Of a stretch of 64,000 nucleotides of DNA, positions 2,727 through 53,646 are shown one piece after another. Under the pieces are notes generated by a model. The model ran no database searches. It worked only from the letters and a program-made list of their open reading frames with translations, and was not told where the DNA came from. Numbering within the stretch: position 1 is the first letter of the stretch; each line of letters begins with the position of its first letter. Made by a program: the position numbers and the translations under genes. Origin of the DNA: Oceanospirillaceae bacterium (GTDB lineage: Bacteria > Pseudomonadota > Gammaproteobacteria > Pseudomonadales > Balneatricaceae); contig JABGSN010000030.1 in assembly GCA_018647765.1 (NCBI GenBank), forward strand, positions 549 to 64,548, in the 5' to 3' direction.

Positions 2727-5147
2727 ATGGAAACCCAAGCAAGAGTAGTGATTATTGGTGGCGGCGTAGTTGGCTGCTCCATATTGTTTCATTTAGCCAA
2801 ATTTGGCTGGAGCGATGTGGTGTTGTTGGAGCGTTCGGAGCTGACTTCTGGCTCGTCCTGGCACGCTGCTGGGCAAACTCATACCATCAGTTCGGACCCA
2901 AATATTTCACGCTTGCAAAGCTACACCCTAAAACTCTATGAAGAGTTAGAGGTTTTATCGGGCCAATCCTGTGGCTTACATACCACCGGTGGTATTTATT
3001 TAGCCGCCACGCCAGAGCGCCTAGACTTTTTAAAACAAGAGCGCTCTAAAGCTCGTTATATGGGCCTAGACCAAGAGTTTATCTCCTTGGAAGAGGCCGC
3101 CAAAATGCACCCGTTGATCGATCCATCCAAATACCTTGGTGCGCTGTATGATCCTATTGATGGGCATGTGGACCCTTCGGGGGTAACTTATGCCTATGCT
3201 AAGGCCGCCCGTCATTATGGCGCCTCTTATCATCGCAACTGCCCCGTGTTAGAAACCAACCCCCGCGCCGATGGCACTTGGGATGTGGTGACCGCCCAAG
3301 GCACTATCCATGCCGAACATGTGGTTAACGCCGCCGGCCTTTGGGCCAGAGAAGTGGGCCATTTAGCAGGCATCGATTTGCCTGTGCAGCCTATGGAGCA
3401 TCATTACCTAATTACCGATACCATCGCCGAAATTGCTTCTCATCCGCATGAATTGCCGGGCGCCATCGATTACGAAGGCAACCTCTACTGCCGTCAAGAA
3501 GGCCAAGGTTTATTGTTGGGCACTTACGAAGCCATAAGCACACCGTGGATGGTAAAAGGTACCCCCAAGGACTTTGGCCATGAACTGCTTAACGAAAACC
3601 TAGATGCCATTGCCGAACGTCTAGAAGTGGCCTTTGACCGTATGCCCGCCTTAGGACGTGCAGGCATTAAGAAGGTGGTTAACGGGCCTTTCACCTTTGG
3701 CCCCGATGGCAACCCCATGATTGGCCCTGTACCTGGCTTACGCAATTACTGGAGCGCCGTTGGCGTTATGGCTGGTTTCTGCCAAGCCGGTGGTGTGGGT
3801 AAGAGCTTGGCTGAGTGGATGATAGAAGGGGAACCAGAAATCGACCCTTGGGCCATGGATATTGCCCGTTTTGGCGAGTTTGCCACGCGTGAATATGGCA
3901 CAAGTAAAGCCTCAGAAAACTATAGCCGCAGGTTTATTCTAACCTACCCTAACGAAGAACTACCGGTGATGCGCAAGCAAAAAACCACGGCGCTGTATGA
4001 TCGTTTGGTAGCCAAGGGCGCGGTAATGGGGGCAAGTTTTGGTTTAGAAAATGCACTTTGGTTTGCCGATGGCCCAGAAAACGCCATAGAAACACCTACC
4101 TTGCGGCGCTCTAATGCCTTTCCTTATGTGGCTGAAGAAGTAAAAGCCGTGCGCGAGCGCGTAGGAGCCATAGAAATTGCCAACTTTGCCAAACACGAAA
4201 TCAAAGGCCCGGGTGCAGAGCAGTTCTTAGACCGTATCTTGGCCTGTAAGCTGCCAAAAGTAGGCCGCTTAACGCTAACACCTATGCTTACACCAAGTGG
4301 CAAACTATACGGCGATCTTACGGTAGCGCGTATGGATGCAGAGACCTTTTACCTGTTTGGCTCGGGCACTGCCCAAGAGATGCACCGGCGTTGGTTTGAA
4401 CAGCATATGCCAGCTACAGGGGTGAGCTACCGCAACCGCTCCGATGAATTGCATGGCATTTCTATCTCTGGGCCACAGTCCCGCGAGTTGTTGTCGCGCA
4501 TTTGCCGCGATGACGTAAGTAATGAAGGCTTAAAGTTCCGTGATCTACGCCGCACCTCCGTAGCAGGAGTGCCGGTTATATTGGCACGGGTTTCGTTTTC
4601 CGGTGAGTTAGGTTACGAAATTTACTGTGCACCACAATACCAGTTGAAGCTTTATGAAAGCTTGTCTGAAGCGGGCGAGGACTTAGGCCTAAGGTTTTAC
4701 GGTAACCGTGCCCTTATGTCCATGCGTTTGGAGAAAAGCTGGGGTGTTTGGACGTTAGAATTTAGGCCAGACTTTACTCCCGCCCAATCGGGCATGGATG
4801 CATTTATCGCCTTCGATAAAGAGGCCGACTTTATTGGTAAACAAGCCGCAATGCTAGAACGCGAGCAAGGCCCAGATAAAAAGTTAGTGACCTTAGTGGT
4901 GGCGACAGAAGGTTTGGATTGTATTCACGATGAAGCCATCTTCCACAATGGCACCTGTGTAGGCTATGTAACATCGGGAGGCTATGCCCACCATGTACAG
5001 CAAAGCGTGGCCATGGGTTATGTGCCAGCAGAATTAGCCCAAGATGGTGCTGTGTTCGAAATCGAAATGCTAGGCGAAATGCACCAAGCCACATATACTG
5101 CCACGCCTTTGTATGACCCTGCTGGTAACAAGATCAGAGGCGCTTAA
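2727..5147 (+). CDS. Dimethylglycine dehydrogenase-like FAD-dependent oxidoreductase (DAO + GcvT folate-binding domains)
   Basis: 806 aa; GGGVVG FAD motif, ELTSGSSWHAAG (flavinylation His region), NGPFTFGPDG, GcvT C-terminus (SFSGELGYEI, RLEKS, VTSGGY). Confidence 0.85.
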   Translation: METQARVVIIGGGVVGCSILFHLAKFGWSDVVLLERSELTSGSSWHAAGQTHTISSDPNISRLQSYTLKLYEELEVLSGQSCGLHTTGGIYLAATPERLDFLKQERSKARYMGLDQEFISLEEAAKMHPLIDPSKYLGALYDPIDGHVDPSGVTYAYAKAARHYGASYHRNCPVLETNPRADGTWDVVTAQGTIHAEHVVNAAGLWAREVGHLAGIDLPVQPMEHHYLITDTIAEIASHPHELPGAIDYEGNLYCRQEGQGLLLGTYEAISTPWMVKGTPKDFGHELLNENLDAIAERLEVAFDRMPALGRAGIKKVVNGPFTFGPDGNPMIGPVPGLRNYWSAVGVMAGFCQAGGVGKSLAEWMIEGEPEIDPWAMDIARFGEFATREYGTSKASENYSRRFILTYPNEELPVMRKQKTTALYDRLVAKGAVMGASFGLENALWFADGPENAIETPTLRRSNAFPYVAEEVKAVRERVGAIEIANFAKHEIKGPGAEQFLDRILACKLPKVGRLTLTPMLTPSGKLYGDLTVARMDAETFYLFGSGTAQEMHRRWFEQHMPATGVSYRNRSDELHGISISGPQSRELLSRICRDDVSNEGLKFRDLRRTSVAGVPVILARVSFSGELGYEIYCAPQYQLKLYESLSEAGEDLGLRFYGNRALMSMRLEKSWGVWTLEFRPDFTPAQSGMDAFIAFDKEADFIGKQAAMLEREQGPDKKLVTLVVATEGLDCIHDEAIFHNGTCVGYVTSGGYAHHVQQSVAMGYVPAELAQDGAVFEIEMLGEMHQATYTATPLYDPAGNKIRGA

Positions 5148-11221: not shown

Positions 11222-12643
11222 TTACCTGACGAAAACTTTCAAAAATGCATTAACCCGAGCACCATAGGGGGGATACAAGTTGGATAAGGTAGATTTGCGG
11301 GCCTGCTTAAAAATTGGGCGTAACTTACTCATGGTCATAAACCCTTCCATACCATGGTAGTGCCCCATGCCACTTTCGCCCACACCGCCAAACGGTAGGT
11401 CGTGTTGGCTAACCTGCAAGGTGGTGTCGTTGATACACACGCCTCCGGAGCGGGTTTTGTTAATCACGTCTGTTTGTAGCTGTTTATCATGGCTGAATAA
11501 ATACAAGCCTAAAGGGCGAGCGTGGCGATTAACATAGTCCAGTACATCGTTCATGTGAGTGTAAGTCATGATGGGTAATAGGGGGCCAAAAACCTCTTCC
11601 TGCATGACTCTCATATTATCGTTTACGTCGGTTAATAAGGTCGGTGCAAGCTTACGCATCGTGTCGTCGTGGGTGTCACCCATAACCATGGGAATGGCTT
11701 GGGCACCCAGCGCAGAGGCATCGGCTAGGGTACTGTTAAGACGTTGATAAGCTGCTTCATCAATAACCGAGGTGTAGTCGGGGCTACTGATGTTGGGGTA
11801 GCGAGTATTCACAATGCGTTTAGCGGCTGCTACAAATTCGTTTACCTTGCCCTCGGGCACAAACAGGTAATCAGGCGCTACGCAGGTTTGGCCAGCGTTG
11901 AGGCACTTAAAAAACAACAAACGTTCAGCCGCTTTGGTAATAGGGTAGTCGGGGGCAATAATAGCCGGTGATTTACCACCCAATTCCAAAGTTACCGGGG
12001 TGAGGTTGTTGGCCGCCGCACGCATTACTTGGCGGCCGGTACTCCCGGAACCGGTAAACACTAAATGATCAAACGGTAGGGCGGAAAAATCGGAGCCTTT
12101 GGCGCCGGGTATAATGGTAATCATGTCCTCAGCAAAGGTTTCTGCAAACAAAGCCTGTAACAAATGGCATAAATTCGACGAGTTGGCCGCCATTTTTATC
12201 ATGCAGCGGTTACCCGCAGCAATGGCGCATACCAATGGGCTAATACATAGAAATAAAGGGTAGTTCCACGGTACCACAATACCCACTACGCCTAGCGGCT
12301 GCGGAATTACAGTGTTACGGGCACCTAAGGCCCAAATGCCGACGGATCGTTTTTGGGTTTTCATCCACTTGGATAGCTTTTTTCGCGCATGGTTAATGCC
12401 ATCGATGGATGGAAAAATTTCGGCTAAACGGGTTTCTTGGTGCGCCCGATGGCCGTAGTCCTTACAGATGGCGTCTACTATGGCCTGTTGGTTGGCCATA
12501 ATCAGCGATTTAAGCGTGTCTAAGGTGTGCTGGCGCTGTGCTAGGGTTGGGATGCCCTGGGATAAATAGGCCGATTGTTGCTTGGCAAGCGTAGCTCTGA
12601 GCTGGTCCGCGTTGACCTGAGGCGGGTTTAAGGGTGTTGACAT
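11222..12643 (-). CDS. Coniferyl-aldehyde-dehydrogenase-like (CalB/ALDH3) aldehyde dehydrogenase
   Basis: 473 aa; PQPLGVVGIVVPWNYP, FTGSG, LELGGKSP, NAGQTCVAPDY, EEVFGP, PFGGVGESGMG. Confidence 0.8.
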   Translation of the reverse strand: MSTPLNPPQVNADQLRATLAKQQSAYLSQGIPTLAQRQHTLDTLKSLIMANQQAIVDAICKDYGHRAHQETRLAEIFPSIDGINHARKKLSKWMKTQKRSVGIWALGARNTVIPQPLGVVGIVVPWNYPLFLCISPLVCAIAAGNRCMIKMAANSSNLCHLLQALFAETFAEDMITIIPGAKGSDFSALPFDHLVFTGSGSTGRQVMRAAANNLTPVTLELGGKSPAIIAPDYPITKAAERLLFFKCLNAGQTCVAPDYLFVPEGKVNEFVAAAKRIVNTRYPNISSPDYTSVIDEAAYQRLNSTLADASALGAQAIPMVMGDTHDDTMRKLAPTLLTDVNDNMRVMQEEVFGPLLPIMTYTHMNDVLDYVNRHARPLGLYLFSHDKQLQTDVINKTRSGGVCINDTTLQVSQHDLPFGGVGESGMGHYHGMEGFMTMSKLRPIFKQARKSTLSNLYPPYGARVNAFLKVFVR

Positions 12644-12673
12644 GCGGTGAGTTCCTGTTGCTGATAGAGCTAG

Positions 12674-12690
12674 TATGATTCGGAATCATA
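12674..12690. promoter_or_regulatory. Palindromic operator candidate upstream of the CalB-like gene
   Basis: TATGATTC-G-GAATCATA, about 30 bp upstream of the start codon. Confidence 0.5.
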
Positions 12691-12742
12691 ACCAAACCAA
12701 CAACAGAATACTGCAGGTGACCGTAAAACCACAATACTGTTT

Positions 12743-12903
12743 GTCTTTGCGAGCGTAGCGAAGCAATCCAAACCCGCAGGTTATGGGCTGCCACGTGGGC
12801 CTGCCCCATGAGCGCAGCGAGTGCTTTGGGTACACTTCGTTCCTCGGCAATTGCTCCTGCATTGCCCTACTAAGCTACATCCATGTACCGATCGCAGAGA
12901 CGG
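12743..12903. repeat. REP-like element, long form, copy B
   Basis: GTCTTTGCGAGCGTAGCGAAGCAATCC...GGCAATTGCTCCTGCATTGCCCTACTAAGCTACATCCATGTACCGATCGCAGAGACG; long insert shared with copies D and H. Confidence 0.85.
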
Positions 12904-12933
12904 GTCTTGAATTGTGTCATCGACCAACTCAAA

Positions 12934-12993
12934 TCAACGCTTTAGGTCGCGATAAATATTTTCATAACGCCACTCGCTATAAGGTGGGCCTAG
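12934..12993 (-). pseudogene. Relic C-terminus of a RelE/ParE-type toxin
   Basis: Minus-strand frame reads LGPPYSEWRYENIYRDLKR*, resembling the ...LG.HENFYRDLKR* end of toxins paired with ParD-like antitoxins; no start codon or N-terminal part remains. Confidence 0.55.
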
Positions 12994-13202
12994 TTAATGA
13001 CGAATTCAAAAGCCGAGTTTTCTTCATCTAACGCAACTAAGGTATCGCGTATAAATTCAATGGGTAAGTCGGGATTGTCTAAGGCAGCGCGGCCGACCCG
13101 AGCCCAAAATTCAATCTGGCTAGGAATGGTACGAAGCTCTGCTTTAGATTGAACTTTGGCTTGTTGGTACAGGTCGTCTGTAATATGGATTGAAATACTC
13201 AT
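12990..13202 (-). CDS. ParD-like antitoxin (type II TA, RHH-like)
   Basis: 70 aa MSISIHITDDLYQQAKVQSKAELRTIPSQIEFWARVGRAALDNPDLPIEFIRDTL; the RT.PxQIEFWAxxGRxxxDNPDLP signature. Start refined to ATG 13202. Confidence 0.85.
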   Translation of the reverse strand: MSISIHITDDLYQQAKVQSKAELRTIPSQIEFWARVGRAALDNPDLPIEFIRDTLVALDEENSAFEFVIN

Positions 13203-13219
13203 GTTAGTCACCTTCATTG

Positions 13220-13241
13220 CTTTACTACAATTGTAGTAAAG
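13220..13241. promoter_or_regulatory. Perfect 22-bp palindrome, probable TA autoregulatory operator
   Basis: CTTTACTACAATTGTAGTAAAG is its own reverse complement and lies 18-39 bp upstream of the antitoxin ATG. Confidence 0.7.
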
Positions 13242-13300
13242 TCGCATGAGAACACACAGCAAATGGGAATTATATGCAGGGTATGGCTTTTAGTATTGCG

Positions 13301-13366
13301 GCCTTGGGCTGTCGCAGGCCTGCGGCCCTCGATTTTCTCATGGGGCAGGCTCAGCGCAGTGCAGCG
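13301..13366. repeat. Degenerate REP-related element, copy C
   Basis: CTCATGGGGCAGGC (13337-13350) is the exact reverse complement of GCCTGCCCCATGAG (12799-12812) in copy B; also contains GCAGGCCTGC and CAGCGCAGTGCAGCG. Confidence 0.55.
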
Positions 13367-13369
13367 GTG

Positions 13370-15415
13370 TTAGGGCAATCGGCGTTCTACTAAGGTGAGG
13401 ATGCTGTAGAGCGCTACCGGCGTGTCGTGCTGGTTGCGGACTTCTACATCCCATTCCACTACACCTGTGGGCTTTTTATCATCAGGACGTTGGTCTTTAT
13501 AGGTTTTTTGTTTGCAGCTTAGACGCACTTGGATGGTATCACCAATGCATACGGGTTCCACAAAACGTAAGTTTTCTAAGCCATAGTTAGCTAAAACTGG
13601 GCCCGGTGAAGGTTCTACAAACATACCCGCGGCGGCCGAAATGACAAAATAACCATGGGCTACACGTTCTCCAAACAAGGAGTCCTTGGCGGCAATTTCG
13701 TCGAAGTGAGCGTAAAAGTGGTCGCCAGACAGGCAACCAAAATTAACGATGTCGGCTTCGGTTACCGTGCGTCGGTGCGTGATTAAGGTTTCGCCAATTT
13801 GCAGGTCTTCAAAGTGCTTCTTAAACGGGTGCACTTGGGTGGTGATCTGTTCTGAACCGGGGTGGAATTCTTTGGTCACCGCCGTAAGCATGGTAGGGCT
13901 ACCTTGCAGTGCCGTACGTTGCATATAATGCTTTACGGCACGGATGCCACCGAGTTCTTCGCCGCCACCAGCACGGCCTGGGCCACCATGGACCAACATA
14001 GGCAAAGGTGAGCCGTGACCAGTGGATTCTTTTGCACAGGCTTGGTTGAGCACTAACAAACGGCCATGGTAGGCAGCGGTGCCAAGCACAATTTGTTGGG
14101 CTTCTATGGGGTCGTCACTGACTAACGAACCCACTAAGCTGCCACGGCCTAATTTGGTGATGGCAATGGCTTCGTCGATGTTATTGTAAGGCATTAATAC
14201 TGACACGGGGCCAAAGGCTTCTACTTCGTGGGGTAGGGTGGCCGTAAGCGGGTTATCGCAAACCAACAAGGTGGCGGGGAAAAAGGCGCCGCCTTCTCGG
14301 TTGCCACTATGCAGGGCAAAGTCTTGGCTGCCACCGTATATCACTTGGGTATGTTGCTTTAACCGGTTTAGCTGATCCCACGTGTCGGCCACTTGGTCGC
14401 GGCCAACGAGTGGCCCCATACGCACGCCTTCTTGTGCTGGGTCGCCCATGGTCATTTTTTGCAAACGACCAATCACTGCGGTGGATACGGCGTCCATCAA
14501 GTTTGCAGGCACAATGGCACGGCGAATAGCGGTACACTTTTGGCCGGCTTTGACGGTCATTTCGGTGACTAAAGACTTCACGAAGAGGTCAAATTCTGGA
14601 GTGTCTGGCGTGGCTTGCTGGCCCAGAATACTGTAGTTAAGCGAATCGGCTTCCATGGTGAAGGGAATGCTGTTGGCCATGATGTTGGCATGGCTTTTTA
14701 GCTTTTGGCCGGTGACAGCGGAGCCGGTAAAGGTGACGACGTCTTGTTCGTTAAGTTGATCTAAAAGATCGCCTACACCACCACAAATGAGCTGGATGGC
14801 ACCTTCGGGTAACAAACCAGACTCTACAATGGCTTTGACCATAAGCTGGGTAAGGTAACAGGACACGCTAGCAGGTTTAACGATGACGGGGACACCAGCA
14901 GCTAAGCTGGGCGCGATTTTTTCTAACATGCCCCAGCAGGGGAAGTTAAAGGCGTTAATGTGTACCGCCACACCCTCTTTAGGCACCAAAATATGGCGGC
15001 CTACAAATGAGCCGCCAGCAGACAAAGCTTCGGATGGGCCTTCTATGGCATAGGTTTCGTTAGAAAACTCACGACGCACCATGCCCGAATAACTAAATAG
15101 GGTTTGAATGCCGCCTTCAATGTCTACCCAGCTGTCCAATTGTGTGGCGCCGGTGCAGGCAGATAAGGTGTAAAATTCTTGTTTACGCTCCAGTAGGTAT
15201 TTGCCTAGGTGCTTCAGCATATTGGCGCGTTCGTGCAGAGTCATCTGCCTTAGGGCGGTGCCGCCGACGTTACGACCATAGGTTGCCACTGCTGCAAAGT
15301 CGATACCTTGGCTGCTGATTTGAGCCACTGGGTCACCGCTAACTGCGTGGTAAATTTCTACCCCAGCATCGTTGCTGATATGCCACTGGCCATTAACGTA
15401 ACTTGATACTTTCAT
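13370..15415 (-). CDS. paaZ: Oxepin-CoA hydrolase / 3-oxo-5,6-dehydrosuberyl-CoA semialdehyde dehydrogenase
   Basis: ALDH domain (HINAFNFPCW, KAGQKCTAIRR, EAFGPV) plus MaoC domain (GDHFYAHFD, VAHGYF); start refined to MKVSSYV at 15415. Confidence 0.95.
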   Translation of the reverse strand: MKVSSYVNGQWHISNDAGVEIYHAVSGDPVAQISSQGIDFAAVATYGRNVGGTALRQMTLHERANMLKHLGKYLLERKQEFYTLSACTGATQLDSWVDIEGGIQTLFSYSGMVRREFSNETYAIEGPSEALSAGGSFVGRHILVPKEGVAVHINAFNFPCWGMLEKIAPSLAAGVPVIVKPASVSCYLTQLMVKAIVESGLLPEGAIQLICGGVGDLLDQLNEQDVVTFTGSAVTGQKLKSHANIMANSIPFTMEADSLNYSILGQQATPDTPEFDLFVKSLVTEMTVKAGQKCTAIRRAIVPANLMDAVSTAVIGRLQKMTMGDPAQEGVRMGPLVGRDQVADTWDQLNRLKQHTQVIYGGSQDFALHSGNREGGAFFPATLLVCDNPLTATLPHEVEAFGPVSVLMPYNNIDEAIAITKLGRGSLVGSLVSDDPIEAQQIVLGTAAYHGRLLVLNQACAKESTGHGSPLPMLVHGGPGRAGGGEELGGIRAVKHYMQRTALQGSPTMLTAVTKEFHPGSEQITTQVHPFKKHFEDLQIGETLITHRRTVTEADIVNFGCLSGDHFYAHFDEIAAKDSLFGERVAHGYFVISAAAGMFVEPSPGPVLANYGLENLRFVEPVCIGDTIQVRLSCKQKTYKDQRPDDKKPTGVVEWDVEVRNQHDTPVALYSILTLVERRLP

Positions 15416-15426
15416 GTGCTGGTCCT

Positions 15427-16503
15427 TTAAATGTCGTAGTCTAAGACGATATTGGCGCTGATGGGGTAACTTTGGCAACTCAGTACGTAGCCGTCTTTGA
15501 TCTCGTAGTCTTCTAAGGCGTGGTTAGTGTCCATTTCTACTTCGCCTTCGAGTATCTTGCATTTGCAGGTGGAGCAGACGCCGGCTTTACAGGCCCATGG
15601 TAGGTCTGCGCCTTCGGCAAGGCCTGCTTCAAGAATGTTTAAACTGTTGTGAGCTAACTCAAAGCTGCGGGTGTGGCCGTCGGCGCGGATACTGACCTGG
15701 CTGGTATTGGCATTGCTTTGTGTCGGTTTGCGCTTGCGTGCGGCGCTGCCCGCTGTTTGTGTGCCAAACAGTTCTAAGTGAACCTTGGCGGCCGGAATGC
15801 CGGCCTTAATTAAGGCCTGTTGGCAGTCTTTACTCATGTCTTCTGGACCACAAATAAAACATTCACTGATACGGTCTGGGTGTACCCATTGACTCAATAG
15901 GTGGTCGATCTTGTCACCATTGATGCGACCATTAAACAGGTCGATGTCTTGCTGCTCGCGGCTCATCACATAGATGACGTTGAGGCGTTGCATGTAGATG
16001 TTTTTAAGGTCTTCTAACTGTTCCCTAAAAATAACGCTGCTGGTAGCACGGTTGCCGTACACCAAGGTGACCTTGGAGGCTGCTTCGGTTTCTAACATGC
16101 TGGCGGCAATAGATAGAATAGGGGTAATGCCAGAACCTGCGGCAATGAGTAAGTACTCGCCGGCATGATGGGCATCTAAGGTGCTAGTGAAGCTGCCTTG
16201 AGGTGGCATTACATCAATTTGTTGGCCAACTTTAAGCTGCTGGTTGGCCCACGTAGAAAACTGGCCATCGGCCACTTGCTTAACGGCAACACGTAATTTT
16301 TGTTGGCCTACGCTTTCGCAAATGGAGTAGGCACGACGTACTTCCTGGCCTTCTATTTGAGTACGAAGGGTGAGGTATTGGCCTTGTTGGTAGTGGAACT
16401 TGTCGGCTAAATCGGCCGGTAAATCAAAGGCGATGGAGACGGTTTCGCGGGTCTCGTTGGTGAGTTGATTTACAGTGAGTGGGTAAAAATTCTTCATAGT
16501 CAA
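15427..16503 (-). CDS. paaE: Phenylacetyl-CoA epoxidase reductase subunit (FAD/NAD + 2Fe-2S)
   Basis: RRAYSIC, AAGSGITP, CGP, C-terminal ferredoxin ACKAGVCSTC...C. Confidence 0.95.
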   Translation of the reverse strand: MTMKNFYPLTVNQLTNETRETVSIAFDLPADLADKFHYQQGQYLTLRTQIEGQEVRRAYSICESVGQQKLRVAVKQVADGQFSTWANQQLKVGQQIDVMPPQGSFTSTLDAHHAGEYLLIAAGSGITPILSIAASMLETEAASKVTLVYGNRATSSVIFREQLEDLKNIYMQRLNVIYVMSREQQDIDLFNGRINGDKIDHLLSQWVHPDRISECFICGPEDMSKDCQQALIKAGIPAAKVHLELFGTQTAGSAARKRKPTQSNANTSQVSIRADGHTRSFELAHNSLNILEAGLAEGADLPWACKAGVCSTCKCKILEGEVEMDTNHALEDYEIKDGYVLSCQSYPISANIVLDYDI

Positions 16504-19198: not shown

Positions 19199-19379
19199 GG
19201 GTTGCCAAGTTGCTGCGCGCCTCGCAATGACGAAACGGTGTCTTTGCGAGCGCAGCGAAGCAATCCAAGTCCGCGGTATATGGATTGCCGCAAGCCTTAG
19301 GCCTTCGGCAATTGCTCATGCATTGCTCTACTAAGCTACATCCCTGTAGCGATCGCAAAGACGGGAAATCGCAGAGACG
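19199..19379. repeat. REP-like composite element, copy D
   Basis: Right arm CGCGCCTCGCAATGACG followed by GTCTTTGCGAGCGCAGCGAAGCAATCC-aagtccgcggtata-TGGATTGCC...CTACTAAGCTACATCCCTGTAGCGATCGCAAAGACG. Confidence 0.85.
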
Positions 19380-24394: not shown

Positions 24395-24471
24395 CGTCTT
24401 TGCGAACGAAGTGAAGTAATCCAAGCCCGCGGTTTGTGGATTACCGCGTCGCTGTGCTCCTCGCAAAGACG
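24395..24471. repeat. REP-like element, complete hairpin form, copy F
   Basis: CGTCTTTGCGAACGAAGTGAAGTAATCCA-agcccgcggtttg-TGGATTACCGCGTCGCTGTGCTCCTCGCAAAGACG with a compensatory TAATCC/GGATTA change. Confidence 0.88.
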
Positions 24472-32739: not shown

Positions 32740-32841
32740 GGATTGCTTCGCTGTGCTCGCAAACATGGAAAAAGGGGGTGCTCGTAAAGACGGGGTTGAG
32801 GTTGTCTCTGCGATCGCTTCATGGATGTAGCTTAGTAGAGC
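32740..32841. repeat. REP-like element in reverse orientation, copy H
   Basis: GGATTGCTTCGCTGTGCTCGCAAAC, GCTCGTAAAGACG and GTCTCTGCGATCGCTTCATGGATGTAGCTTAGTAGAGC (reverse complement of the B/D long insert). Confidence 0.8.
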
Positions 32842-53520: not shown

Positions 53521-53646
53521 CGTCTCGTTATCTCAGATTCTGACCTACGTCAGAATGACGCAAATACACGTCTTTGCGAACGCAGTGAAGCAATCCAAGT
53601 CCGCGGTAGTGGATTGCCGCGGTACTTCGCGCCTCGCAAAGACGGG
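53521..53646. repeat. Composite REP-like element, copy I
   Basis: AGATTCTGACCTACGTCAGAATGACG followed by CGTCTTTGCGAACGCAGTGAAGCAATCC-aagtccgcggtag-TGGATTGCCGCGG...CCTCGCAAAGACG; lies between convergent genes. Confidence 0.88.

What the first reader, a model, noticed from the sequence alone, without database searches (positions are those of the whole stretch)
12743..13366. Orphan ParD-like antitoxin cassette: toxin deleted to a ~19-codon relic, operator intact, bracketed by inverted repeats
Seen: an intact 70-aa antitoxin; a perfect 22-bp palindrome in its promoter; directly downstream only LGPPYSEWRYENIYRDLKR* of the expected RelE/ParE toxin; and a 14-bp perfect inverted repeat (12799-12812 / 13337-13350) within REP-like copies B and C enclosing about 520 bp. 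Inference: a TA cassette inserted at a REP site, then lost its toxin. The antitoxin may persist as an anti-addiction factor or regulator.
Basis: partly seen in the sequence, partly recalled or inferred. Interest (0 to 1): 0.65.

Follow-up and report, generated by a model that had tools for sequence, protein, structure and literature searches.

The report
Orphan antitoxin left by toxin deletion
This marine bacterium keeps the antidote gene of a two-gene toxin-antitoxin pair, but a 235-base deletion removed the toxin gene that close relatives still carry at the same spot; this is an ordinary, well-documented stage of toxin-antitoxin decay.

Summary
An intact 70-aa PF11903 ParD-like antitoxin lies at 12990-13202 (-). 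A perfect 22-bp palindrome lies upstream (13220-13241), a toxin stub downstream, and a perfect 14-bp inverted repeat at the stated coordinates.

Relatives settle what it is. Two related lineages (MAG UBA8682 / L008, and JGI contig L005) carry paaZ, ParD-like, an 88-aa PF15781 ParE-like toxin, then calB in the same interval. In the window a 235-bp deletion between two GAAAAT direct repeats joins the toxin's first 8 nt to its last 24 nt. The rest is the spacer and start codon read out of frame.

The deletion is identical in 11 independently assembled metagenome contigs. The complete genome holds no other PF15781 toxin. Two sister species (G128, G134) lack the whole module, leaving a 135-bp interval with a hairpin.

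A REP/MITE-like family (about 31 copies) surrounds the cassette. The conserved bracket is a direct repeat of the element's 3' half, not the 14-bp inverted repeat. The phylogeny favours ancestral residence with later loss.

The orphan carries R6H at an otherwise invariant arginine. The operator occurs nowhere else in the genome. Verdict: a clean example of toxin-antitoxin decay, of low novelty.

The parts
12990..13202 (-). Intact 70-aa ParD-like (PF11903) antitoxin gene, with ATG at 13200-13202 and TAG stop at 12990-12992. It carries the lineage-specific substitutions R6H, V51I and S62N, and probably A68V and T69I.
   Evidence: Pfam hit at E 4e-19. It is the only PF11903 hit in the genome. It is 91% identical to the antitoxins of full pairs in relatives. 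The AF2 model (pLDDT 87) shows an N-terminal strand plus helices 9-22, 26-42 and 48-59.
13209..13214 (-). Shine-Dalgarno AAGGTG, 6 nt upstream of the ATG. Relatives have TAGGCG here; the window form is derived.
   Evidence: Direct reading.
13220..13241 (.). Perfect 22-bp palindrome CTTTACTACAATTGTAGTAAAG. It is the putative antitoxin operator, and its centre holds a -10-like TACAAT.
   Evidence: I7. 2 of 2000 shuffles reach this length. The core TACTACAATTGTAGTA is identical in L008 and L005. ACAATTGT-centred palindromes recur upstream of PF11903 genes at 35-66% protein identity. The sequence is unique in the genome at up to 2 mismatches.
12934..12965 (-). 32-nt remnant of the ParE-like (PF15781) toxin gene: its first 8 nt (ATGAAAAT) fused to its last 24 nt (ATTTATCGCGACCTAAAGCGTTGA). 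From the toxin ATG it reads MKIFIAT*.
   Evidence: Alignment to the 267-nt toxin genes of L008 and L005.
12958..12963 (-). Deletion junction. This is the single surviving copy of the 6-bp direct repeat GAAAAT, which occurs 235 bp apart in the intact gene.
   Evidence: by comparison with L008 4239-4244 and 4474-4479.
12966..12989 (-). parD-parE intergenic spacer, conserved with relatives.
12743..12904 (.). Complete MITE/REP-like element between the toxin remnant and calB, with terminal inverted repeats GTCTTTGCGAGCG... / ...TCGCAGAGAC. It contains the left arm of the 14-bp inverted repeat (12799-12812).
   Evidence: The 27-mer end occurs about 31 times in the genome. Related copies lie at window 19239-19365 and about 32740-32838.
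13262..13369 (.). REP-derived fragment between the paaZ stop and the parD upstream region. It contains the right arm of the 14-bp inverted repeat (13337-13350) and a truncated direct copy of the element's 3' half.
13370..15415 (-). paaZ (aldehyde dehydrogenase + MaoC dehydratase), the upstream neighbour on the same strand.
   Evidence: It is 681 aa in relatives.
11222..12643 (-). calB-like aldehyde dehydrogenase, the downstream neighbour on the same strand.
   Evidence: Synteny with relatives is shown.

Best explanation
This is a decaying chromosomal type II toxin-antitoxin locus, caught at the antitoxin-only stage.

The ancestor of this species group carried a two-gene operon between paaZ and calB. 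It encoded a ParD-like antitoxin (PF11903, ribbon-helix-helix type) and a ParE-like toxin (PF15781, RelE/ParE superfamily). The operon was driven from a region whose ACAATTGT-centred palindrome serves as the antitoxin's operator.

In the window's lineage, slippage or illegitimate recombination between two GAAAAT direct repeats deleted 235 bp. One repeat overlaps the toxin start codon and the other lies 24 nt before its stop. The deletion removed 78 of the toxin's 88 codons and shifted the frame (shown). No other copy of the toxin exists in the genome (shown).

Losing the toxin first is the only non-lethal route of decay, so the antitoxin survives as an orphan. It most likely still binds its own operator and represses itself, with nothing to neutralise (inferred). 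I judge it more likely than not (about 0.55) to be a neutral remnant on its way out rather than a selected gene. It carries R6H at an arginine that is otherwise invariant and probably contacts DNA, and two sister species have already lost the whole module.

The surrounding REP/MITE-like repeats are a mobile, rearranging background. They are not the termini of the cassette.
For: **Full pair in relatives.** Relatives at 91% antitoxin identity have paaZ, ParD_like, ParE-like_toxin (88 aa), Aldedh, DAO, LysR in the same order. G118 scores E 2.1e-31 against PF15781.

**The deletion.** Alignment shows the window keeps ATGAAAAT and then resumes 24 nt before the toxin stop, between GAAAAT repeats 235 bp apart.

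**Fixed in the population.** The deleted state is identical, with 0-2 SNPs over 773 bp, in 11 contigs from separate ENA, JGI, Logan and NCBI assemblies.

**No other toxin.** The genome is 100% complete yet has no PF15781 hit, no tblastn hit below E 0.3 and a single PF11903 gene.

**Ancestral residence.** In the calB tree rooted on G001, L005 and L008 branch as successive outgroups to G000, G128 and G134. parD nucleotide identities (91.5, 82 and 84%) track those of paaZ (90.6, 80.8 and 81%). G128 and G134 lack both genes anywhere in their genomes and have a 135-bp paaZ-calB interval.

**Operator.** The core is identical in three lineages, and ACAATTGT-type palindromes lie upstream of homologues down to 35% identity.

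**Antitoxin fold.** The AF2 model shows strand-helix-helix plus a C-terminal helix. The top Foldseek hits are Arc, CopG, Rv0298 antitoxin and AtaR.

**Drift in the orphan.** R6 is Arg in every other top homologue examined. His occurs only in the five entries of the window's population, P0001-P0005.
Against:
- No sigma-70 consensus promoter was found. Only a -10-like TACAAT is visible, and the -35 region is poor.
- parD is still intact. Pairwise dN/dS against L008 is 0.155, so some continuing constraint cannot be excluded. Lineage-specific counts (about 5 non-synonymous to 4 synonymous, against 1 to 4 in L008) are too small to be significant.
- The derived changes make the palindrome more perfect and the Shine-Dalgarno stronger. 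Simple decay would not predict that.
- The Foldseek E-values are all at least 1, so the ribbon-helix-helix assignment rests on topology and the Pfam family.
- The toxicity of the relatives' PF15781 protein has never been tested.
Confidence: 0.85

Rival explanations
1. The orphan antitoxin is retained by selection as an anti-addiction or immunity factor. It would neutralise ParE-like toxins arriving on plasmids or other mobile elements, letting the cell lose such elements without post-segregational killing.
For: The gene, its ribosome-binding site and its operator are all intact, and the deleted state is fixed in a widespread population. The family does occur on plasmid-like DNA: L013 has Rep3/KfrA neighbours and a 66% identical antitoxin, and 33 PLSDB plasmids carry homologues. 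The window's Shine-Dalgarno is stronger than in relatives. The literature proposes this role for orphan antitoxins (PMC7192599).
Against: Nearly all plasmid homologues are below 60% identical and no phage homologue exists, whereas antitoxin-toxin recognition is usually narrow. S62N, A68V and T69I fall in the presumed toxin-binding tail. The population is nearly clonal, so fixation says nothing about selection. Two sister species dispensed with the module entirely.
Confidence: 0.2
2. The antitoxin has been domesticated as a stand-alone transcription factor that regulates host genes, for example calB or the paa cluster. The R6H change and the perfected palindrome would reflect retuned DNA binding.
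For: It has a ribbon-helix-helix-type N-terminus. It lies on the same strand between paaZ and calB. The regulatory region shows four window-specific changes in about 40 nt, including the palindrome made perfect, together with R6H in the putative DNA-reading strand.
Against: The operator is unique in the genome at up to 2 mismatches, and at 3 mismatches there are 7 sites against 9.4 expected by chance. The only site lies in front of its own gene. Relatives run paaZ and calB without the protein.
Confidence: 0.07
3. The origin proposed by the first reader: the cassette inserted recently at a REP site, with the 14-bp inverted repeat marking its ends, and the empty sites in G128 and G134 are the ancestral state.
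For: REP/MITE-like sequences flank the cassette in every carrier. The empty sites show a clean hairpin, CCCGTCTTTAC-TCTG-GTAAAGGCGGGG, that resembles the tips of the element's terminal repeats. The 14-bp inverted repeat exceeds chance.
Against: The 14-bp inverted repeat is absent from L008 and L005. Carriers L005 and L008 branch outside the group that holds the empty sites, so this view requires three gains at the same site, or transfer by recombination. parD divergence tracks that of the flanking genes. Node support within the group is modest (50-88%).
Confidence: 0.2
4. The missing toxin is an assembly or binning artefact.
For: The genome is a 68-contig draft.
Against: The identical junction appears in 11 contigs from different samples, assemblers and archives.
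Confidence: 0.01

Closest known systems
Decay of chromosomal type II TA systems into orphan antitoxins (for example ccdO157 decay in E. coli, from my own knowledge; orphan antitoxins in Klebsiella pneumoniae, PMC7192599)
   Same: The toxin is inactivated first and the antitoxin stays in the original genetic context. Full, antitoxin-only and empty states coexist among close relatives.
   Different: The family is different (PF11903/PF15781). The host is an uncultured marine Oceanospirillaceae-type bacterium. The lesion is a single microhomology deletion that can be reconstructed to the base.
ParD-like / ParE-like modules (Pfam PF11903 + PF15781), RelE/ParE superfamily
   Same: The antitoxin scores well above the Pfam cut-off. 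The gene order is antitoxin then toxin. Relatives' toxins are 88-90 aa PF15781 proteins.
   Different: The window has no functional toxin. PF15781 itself has no tested activity; PMC11980606 lists its target as unknown and suggests it may be an mRNase. No solved structure was found by sequence search.
Ribbon-helix-helix autorepressors (Arc, CopG, RHH antitoxins such as AtaR and FitA)
   Same: The predicted strand-helix-helix topology and a palindromic site in front of its own gene.
   Different: The Foldseek matches are statistically weak (E of 1 or more). DNA binding is untested. The conserved strand arginine is replaced by histidine here.
REP/BIME and MITE-type intergenic repeats
   Same: Short elements of 75-160 bp with terminal inverted repeats, about 31 copies of the end sequence, confined to intergenic regions, and differing in arrangement between close relatives.
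   Different: No cognate transposase (RAYT or other) was sought. The family's sequence matches nothing I can name.

Membership tests
PF11903 ParD_like antitoxin | Profile HMM score above the Pfam gathering threshold | tested here: met
   68.8 bits against a cut-off of 23, E 4e-19, covering residues 4-64. 67.6 bits in the whole-genome scan.
PF11903 ParD_like antitoxin | Ribbon-helix-helix-type N-terminal DNA-binding fold | tested here: inconclusive
   The AF2 model (pLDDT 87) shows an extended stretch at 1-8, H9-22 and H26-42. The top Foldseek hits are RHH proteins (Arc, CdbA, Rv0298, CopG), but all have E of 1 or more.
PF11903 ParD_like antitoxin | Cognate toxin gene immediately downstream | tested here: not met
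   Only a 32-nt remnant remains. Relatives L005, L008-L012 and L013-L016 do have the toxin gene.
Functional type II toxin-antitoxin module | Intact toxin ORF paired with an intact antitoxin ORF | tested here: not met
   The toxin is reduced to MKIFIAT* by a 235-bp frame-shifting deletion. No PF15781 hit or tblastn hit exists elsewhere in the genome.
Functional type II toxin-antitoxin module | Palindromic operator in front of the operon | tested here: met
   A perfect 22-bp palindrome, conserved across the family. Binding itself cannot be tested here.
PF15781 ParE-like toxin (remnant) | Sequence homology of the relic to the toxin | tested here: met
   The 24-nt 3' end is 20/24 identical to L008. 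ENIYRDLKR* compares with ENFYRDLKR*. The upstream spacer and start codon, and the downstream TTTGAG, are also conserved.
Orphan antitoxin acting as anti-addiction module | Neutralises a homologous toxin carried by a mobile element | not testable with these tools
   Only circumstantial evidence exists. Plasmid homologues are mostly below 60% identical and there are none in phages.
REP/MITE-type repeat | Multi-copy intergenic element with terminal inverted repeats | tested here: met
   31 copies of the 27-mer at up to 5 mismatches, and 10 inverted pairs spanning 70-159 bp. Copies are aligned.
REP/MITE-type repeat | Cognate transposase (for example RAYT) in the genome | not tested
   Not searched for.

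The most novel reading that the evidence does not exclude
After losing its toxin, and with it the co-repressor, the orphan antitoxin and its control region are being adaptively retuned rather than decaying. The supporting signs are the unique R6H change in the DNA-reading strand, the operator half-site change that makes the palindrome perfect, and the stronger Shine-Dalgarno. Together they would be a compensated shift from toxin-dependent to stand-alone autoregulation. That would be a first step towards domesticating an antitoxin as an independent repressor or immunity factor.
Probability: 0.1. Interest if true: 0.5.

Novelty: new member of a known kind. Interest (0 to 1): 0.25.

Why it matters
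It gives a base-resolved natural series at one chromosomal site among close marine relatives: a full pair, an antitoxin only, and an empty site. This illustrates how chromosomal toxin-antitoxin modules die, with the toxin lost first through a microhomology deletion. It also offers a matched set of natural variants (R6 against H6 antitoxin, imperfect against perfect operator) for testing how antitoxin autoregulation changes once the toxin is gone. The PF11903/PF15781 family has no experimental characterisation, so the relatives' intact pair is a reasonable entry point. None of this overturns current understanding.

Tried and rejected
- **Expression data.** Independent assemblies were used instead.
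- **Solved structures.** A sequence search gave nothing usable for either the antitoxin or the toxin.
- **Promoter.** The sigma-70 consensus scan found none in 12600-13420. By eye, only the -10-like TACAAT is visible. Two more distant homologues (L013, L032) have good -35 boxes 17-18 nt upstream of the same TACAAT (my reading).
- **Second toxin copy.** The Pfam HMM and a permissive tblastn found none.
- **Regulon.** Operator-like sites elsewhere in the genome are no more frequent than chance. Two 3-mismatch sites on C44 lie in or next to an amidase gene and were dismissed.
- **Phage homologues.** None found.
- **The 14-bp inverted repeat as cassette terminus.** Rejected, because it is absent in L008 and L005.
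- **'LGPP' in the relic as the toxin's 'LGPH' motif**, as tblastn aligned it. Rejected, because those codons are the parD stop and spacer, which are conserved as non-coding DNA in relatives.
- **Shuffle test.** My first version mixed self-palindromes with spaced repeats. It was redone.

Full report
**What is in the sequence**

The interval between paaZ (13370-15415, minus strand) and a calB-like aldehyde dehydrogenase (11222-12643, minus strand) is 726 bp. It contains one real gene, on the same strand as its neighbours. This is a 70-codon ORF at 12990-13202 that matches Pfam PF11903 (ParD_like antitoxin) at E 4e-19, 68.8 bits against a cut-off of 23.

Six nucleotides upstream of its ATG lies AAGGTG. 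Seventeen nucleotides upstream lies a perfect 22-bp palindrome, CTTTACTACAATTGTAGTAAAG, at 13220-13241. The 14-bp perfect inverted repeat at 12799-12812 / 13337-13350 is also there and extends to 29 nt at 79%. In 2000 shuffles of the 851-bp region, a palindrome of 22 bp or more arose twice and a spaced perfect inverted repeat of 14 bp or more arose once. Both features therefore exceed chance.

**What the relic is**

The antitoxin's closest relatives outside its own population are 91% identical. They lie in metagenome contigs with the same gene order: PaaD, ferredoxin reductase, PaaZ, ParD_like, ParE-like_toxin (PF15781, 88 aa), Aldedh, DAO and a divergent LysR. One of these lineages is the MAG 'Oceanospirillaceae bacterium UBA8682' (G118).

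The toxin there reads MKIEQKNTFKRAYKKLHPKQRHIVNDAIQTIISNPLAGDSKKGDLADLRVYKFDCLQQQYLLAYQTADQWRLLVNLGPHENFYRDLKR.

Nucleotide alignment shows that the window keeps the parD stop, the 21-nt spacer and the toxin's ATGAAAAT. It then continues directly with ATTTATCGCGACCTAAAGCGTTGA, the last 24 nt of the toxin gene, which is 20/24 identical to L008.

In the intact gene, GAAAAT occurs at the start codon (ATGAAAAT) and again 235 bp later (CACGAAAAT). The window has one copy. This is the signature of a 235-bp deletion between 6-bp direct repeats. The remnant spans 32 nt (12934-12965). From the toxin ATG it reads MKIFIAT*, so no functional toxin can be made.

LGPPYSEWRY is the stop codon, spacer and start codon read in another frame. 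Its resemblance to the toxin's LGPH is a coincidence.

**The lesion is real and the antitoxin is a true orphan**

The same parD-relic-calB arrangement occurs in 11 contigs fetched from separate ENA, JGI, Logan and NCBI assemblies, with 0-2 differences over 773 bp. It is therefore fixed in a widespread but nearly clonal marine population.

The window's genome is 2.49 Mb and 100% complete. It has no PF15781 match even at E of 1 or less. A permissive tblastn with the relatives' toxin found nothing better than E 0.3. There is only this one PF11903 gene.

**History of the locus**

Within the genus, G128 and G134 have paaZ directly followed by calB. They share 97.4% and 96.5% PaaZ protein identity with the window. 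Their interval is about 135 bp and contains the hairpin CCCGTCTTTAC-TCTG-GTAAAGGCGGGG. Neither genome has either gene anywhere.

A calB tree rooted on G001 gives ((G000,(G128,G134)),L008),L005. paaZ nucleotide identities are 88-92% within the first four and about 81% to L005. L005 and L008 both carry the full pair in this interval. The simplest history is therefore that the pair was already here in the common ancestor, was lost whole in G128/G134, and lost only its toxin in G000.

parD nucleotide identities (91.5% to L008, 82% to L005) track those of paaZ (90.6% and 80.8%), as vertical descent predicts. Internal node support is modest (50-88%). I put ancestral residence at about 0.7 against insertion or spread by recombination.

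**The repeats**

The 27-mer GTCTTTGCGAGCGYAGCGAAGCAATCC occurs about 31 times in the genome at up to 5 mismatches. It forms inverted pairs spanning 70-159 bp, so it is a REP/MITE-like family.

A complete 159-bp copy lies between the toxin remnant and calB (12743-12901). Related copies lie at window 19239-19365 and about 32740-32838. In L008, a near-identical 150-bp copy sits on the other side of the pair, between paaZ and parD. L005 has yet another arrangement, with a tandem array of a 23-bp unit. The elements have therefore moved or rearranged independently in each lineage.

All three carriers share one feature: a direct repeat of the element's 3' half (GCGGCAGNCCATAGNCCGCGGNATTGGA...) on both sides of the pair. 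The upstream copy is truncated and the downstream copy is complete.

The 14-bp inverted repeat arises because the window's upstream fragment holds a short, oppositely oriented piece of the element. L008 and L005 lack it. It is real, but it is not a cassette terminus.

The hairpin in the empty sites resembles the outermost bases of the element's terminal repeats. I could not decide whether it is a deletion footprint or an older REP-like terminator.

**How it most likely works now**

The AF2 model (pLDDT 87) has an extended N-terminus (residues 1-8), helices at 9-22 and 26-42, then a third helix at 48-59 and a less confident tail. This is a ribbon-helix-helix DNA-binding half followed by what would be the toxin-binding half. 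Foldseek's top hits are Arc, CdbA, the Rv0298 antitoxin, CopG, FitA and AtaR, but all have E of 1 or more. The fold assignment is therefore consistent with the data, not proven.

The palindrome core TACTACAATTGTAGTA is identical in the three lineages, although the sequence just upstream of it is unrelated between them. ACAATTGT- or ACAAATTGT-centred palindromes lie in front of PF11903 genes that share only 35-66% identity. That is good comparative evidence for an operator.

Its centre is also a -10-like TACAAT. Two distant homologues have credible -35 boxes 17-18 nt upstream (my reading). The window has none, and the consensus scan found no promoter.

I infer that the orphan still binds this site and represses its own transcription, with no toxin left to neutralise or to act as co-repressor.

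**Signs of drift or retuning**

Polarising with L008 and L005, the window lineage has R6H, V51I and S62N, probably also A68V and T69I, against about four synonymous changes. The L008 lineage has one non-synonymous change (F50Y) and four synonymous. The counts are too small to be significant.

Arg6 lies in the SISIRI strand, where alternate residues should face the DNA (inference from RHH proteins in general). It is Arg in every other top homologue examined. His occurs only in the five entries of the window's own population. Ser62 is also nearly invariant.

In the 40 nt between the palindrome and the ATG, the window has four private changes in a stretch where L008 and L005 are otherwise nearly identical. 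One change makes the palindrome perfect. The other three turn TAGGCG into AAGGTG and create an in-frame upstream ATG.

The operator sequence is unique in the genome at up to 2 mismatches. At 3 mismatches there are 7 sites against 9.4 expected, so there is no sign of a regulon.

Homologues occur on 33 plasmids, nearly all below 60% identical, and on no phage. One plasmid-like contig (L013, with Rep3/KfrA neighbours) has a 66% identical antitoxin with its toxin.

**Comparison with what is known**

Orphan antitoxins left by toxin-first decay are well documented. The Klebsiella population study counted 2253 orphan antitoxins, many in the original context, and discusses anti-addiction and new-function hypotheses (PMC7192599). 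The E. coli ccdO157 decay series is the classical case (my own knowledge).

PF15781 is listed in a recent survey of RelE/ParE toxins as functionally untested, possibly an mRNase (PMC11980606).

The present case is a clean new example in an uncharacterised family and an uncultured marine host. It is not a new kind of thing.

**Verdict**

Interest is low (0.25), and the finding is a new member of a known kind.

Noticed in passing
window 12743-12901, 19239-19365, ~32740-32838, 23692, 24396-24470, 53570-53643, 5157: A REP/MITE-like family with end sequence GTCTTTGCGAGCGYAGCGAAGCAATCC has about 31 copies in the 2.49-Mb genome. Eight of them lie on this one contig, and units range from about 75 to 159 bp. 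No transposase was sought.
   Followed up: partly
window 13203-13219: The parD leader differs from both relatives at three positions in a stretch that is otherwise conserved between them. TAGGCG becomes AAGGTG (a stronger Shine-Dalgarno), and an in-frame ATG appears 15 nt upstream (13215-13217) where relatives have a TAG stop. Some gene callers therefore predict 75-aa or 85-aa products (P0002, P0004, P0005).
   Followed up: partly
L069 (G128) 2905-3041; L070 (G134) 2876-3012: The empty paaZ-calB site in two sister species has the hairpin CCCGTCTTTAC-TCTG-GTAAAGGCGGGG. Its stem resembles the outer bases of the repeat family's terminal inverted repeats. It may be a deletion footprint or an older REP-like terminator.
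   Followed up: partly
L005 ~3830-4000: Between the toxin gene and calB, this relative has a tandem array of four to five copies of a 23-bp unit (GCGGCTCGCAAAGACGAAAATGT) built from the repeat's end sequence.
   Followed up: no
L013-L016 (Allochromatium-type plasmid-like contigs): A ParD-like / ParE-like pair 66% identical to the window antitoxin sits beside KfrA, a phage-type integrase and Rep3. It is followed by a HigB-like/HTH pair and a Fic protein, forming a cluster of addiction-type modules.
   Followed up: no
window 15416-15478: The mechanical ORF for paaZ starts at a TTG 21 codons upstream of the MKVSSY start that relatives use (681 aa). The shorter form is probably the real one.
   Followed up: no
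G058:C149:239-711: Another species of the genus has a divergent ParD-like / ParE-like pair (40% antitoxin identity) on a very short contig, not in the paaZ-calB interval. In that species calB is not next to paaZ.
   Followed up: no
window paaZ vs calB: calB diverges much faster than the adjacent paaZ between the same genomes (83.5% against 90.6% nucleotide identity for G000-L008). The calB and concatenated trees also differ slightly, which hints at recombination around this interval.
   Followed up: no
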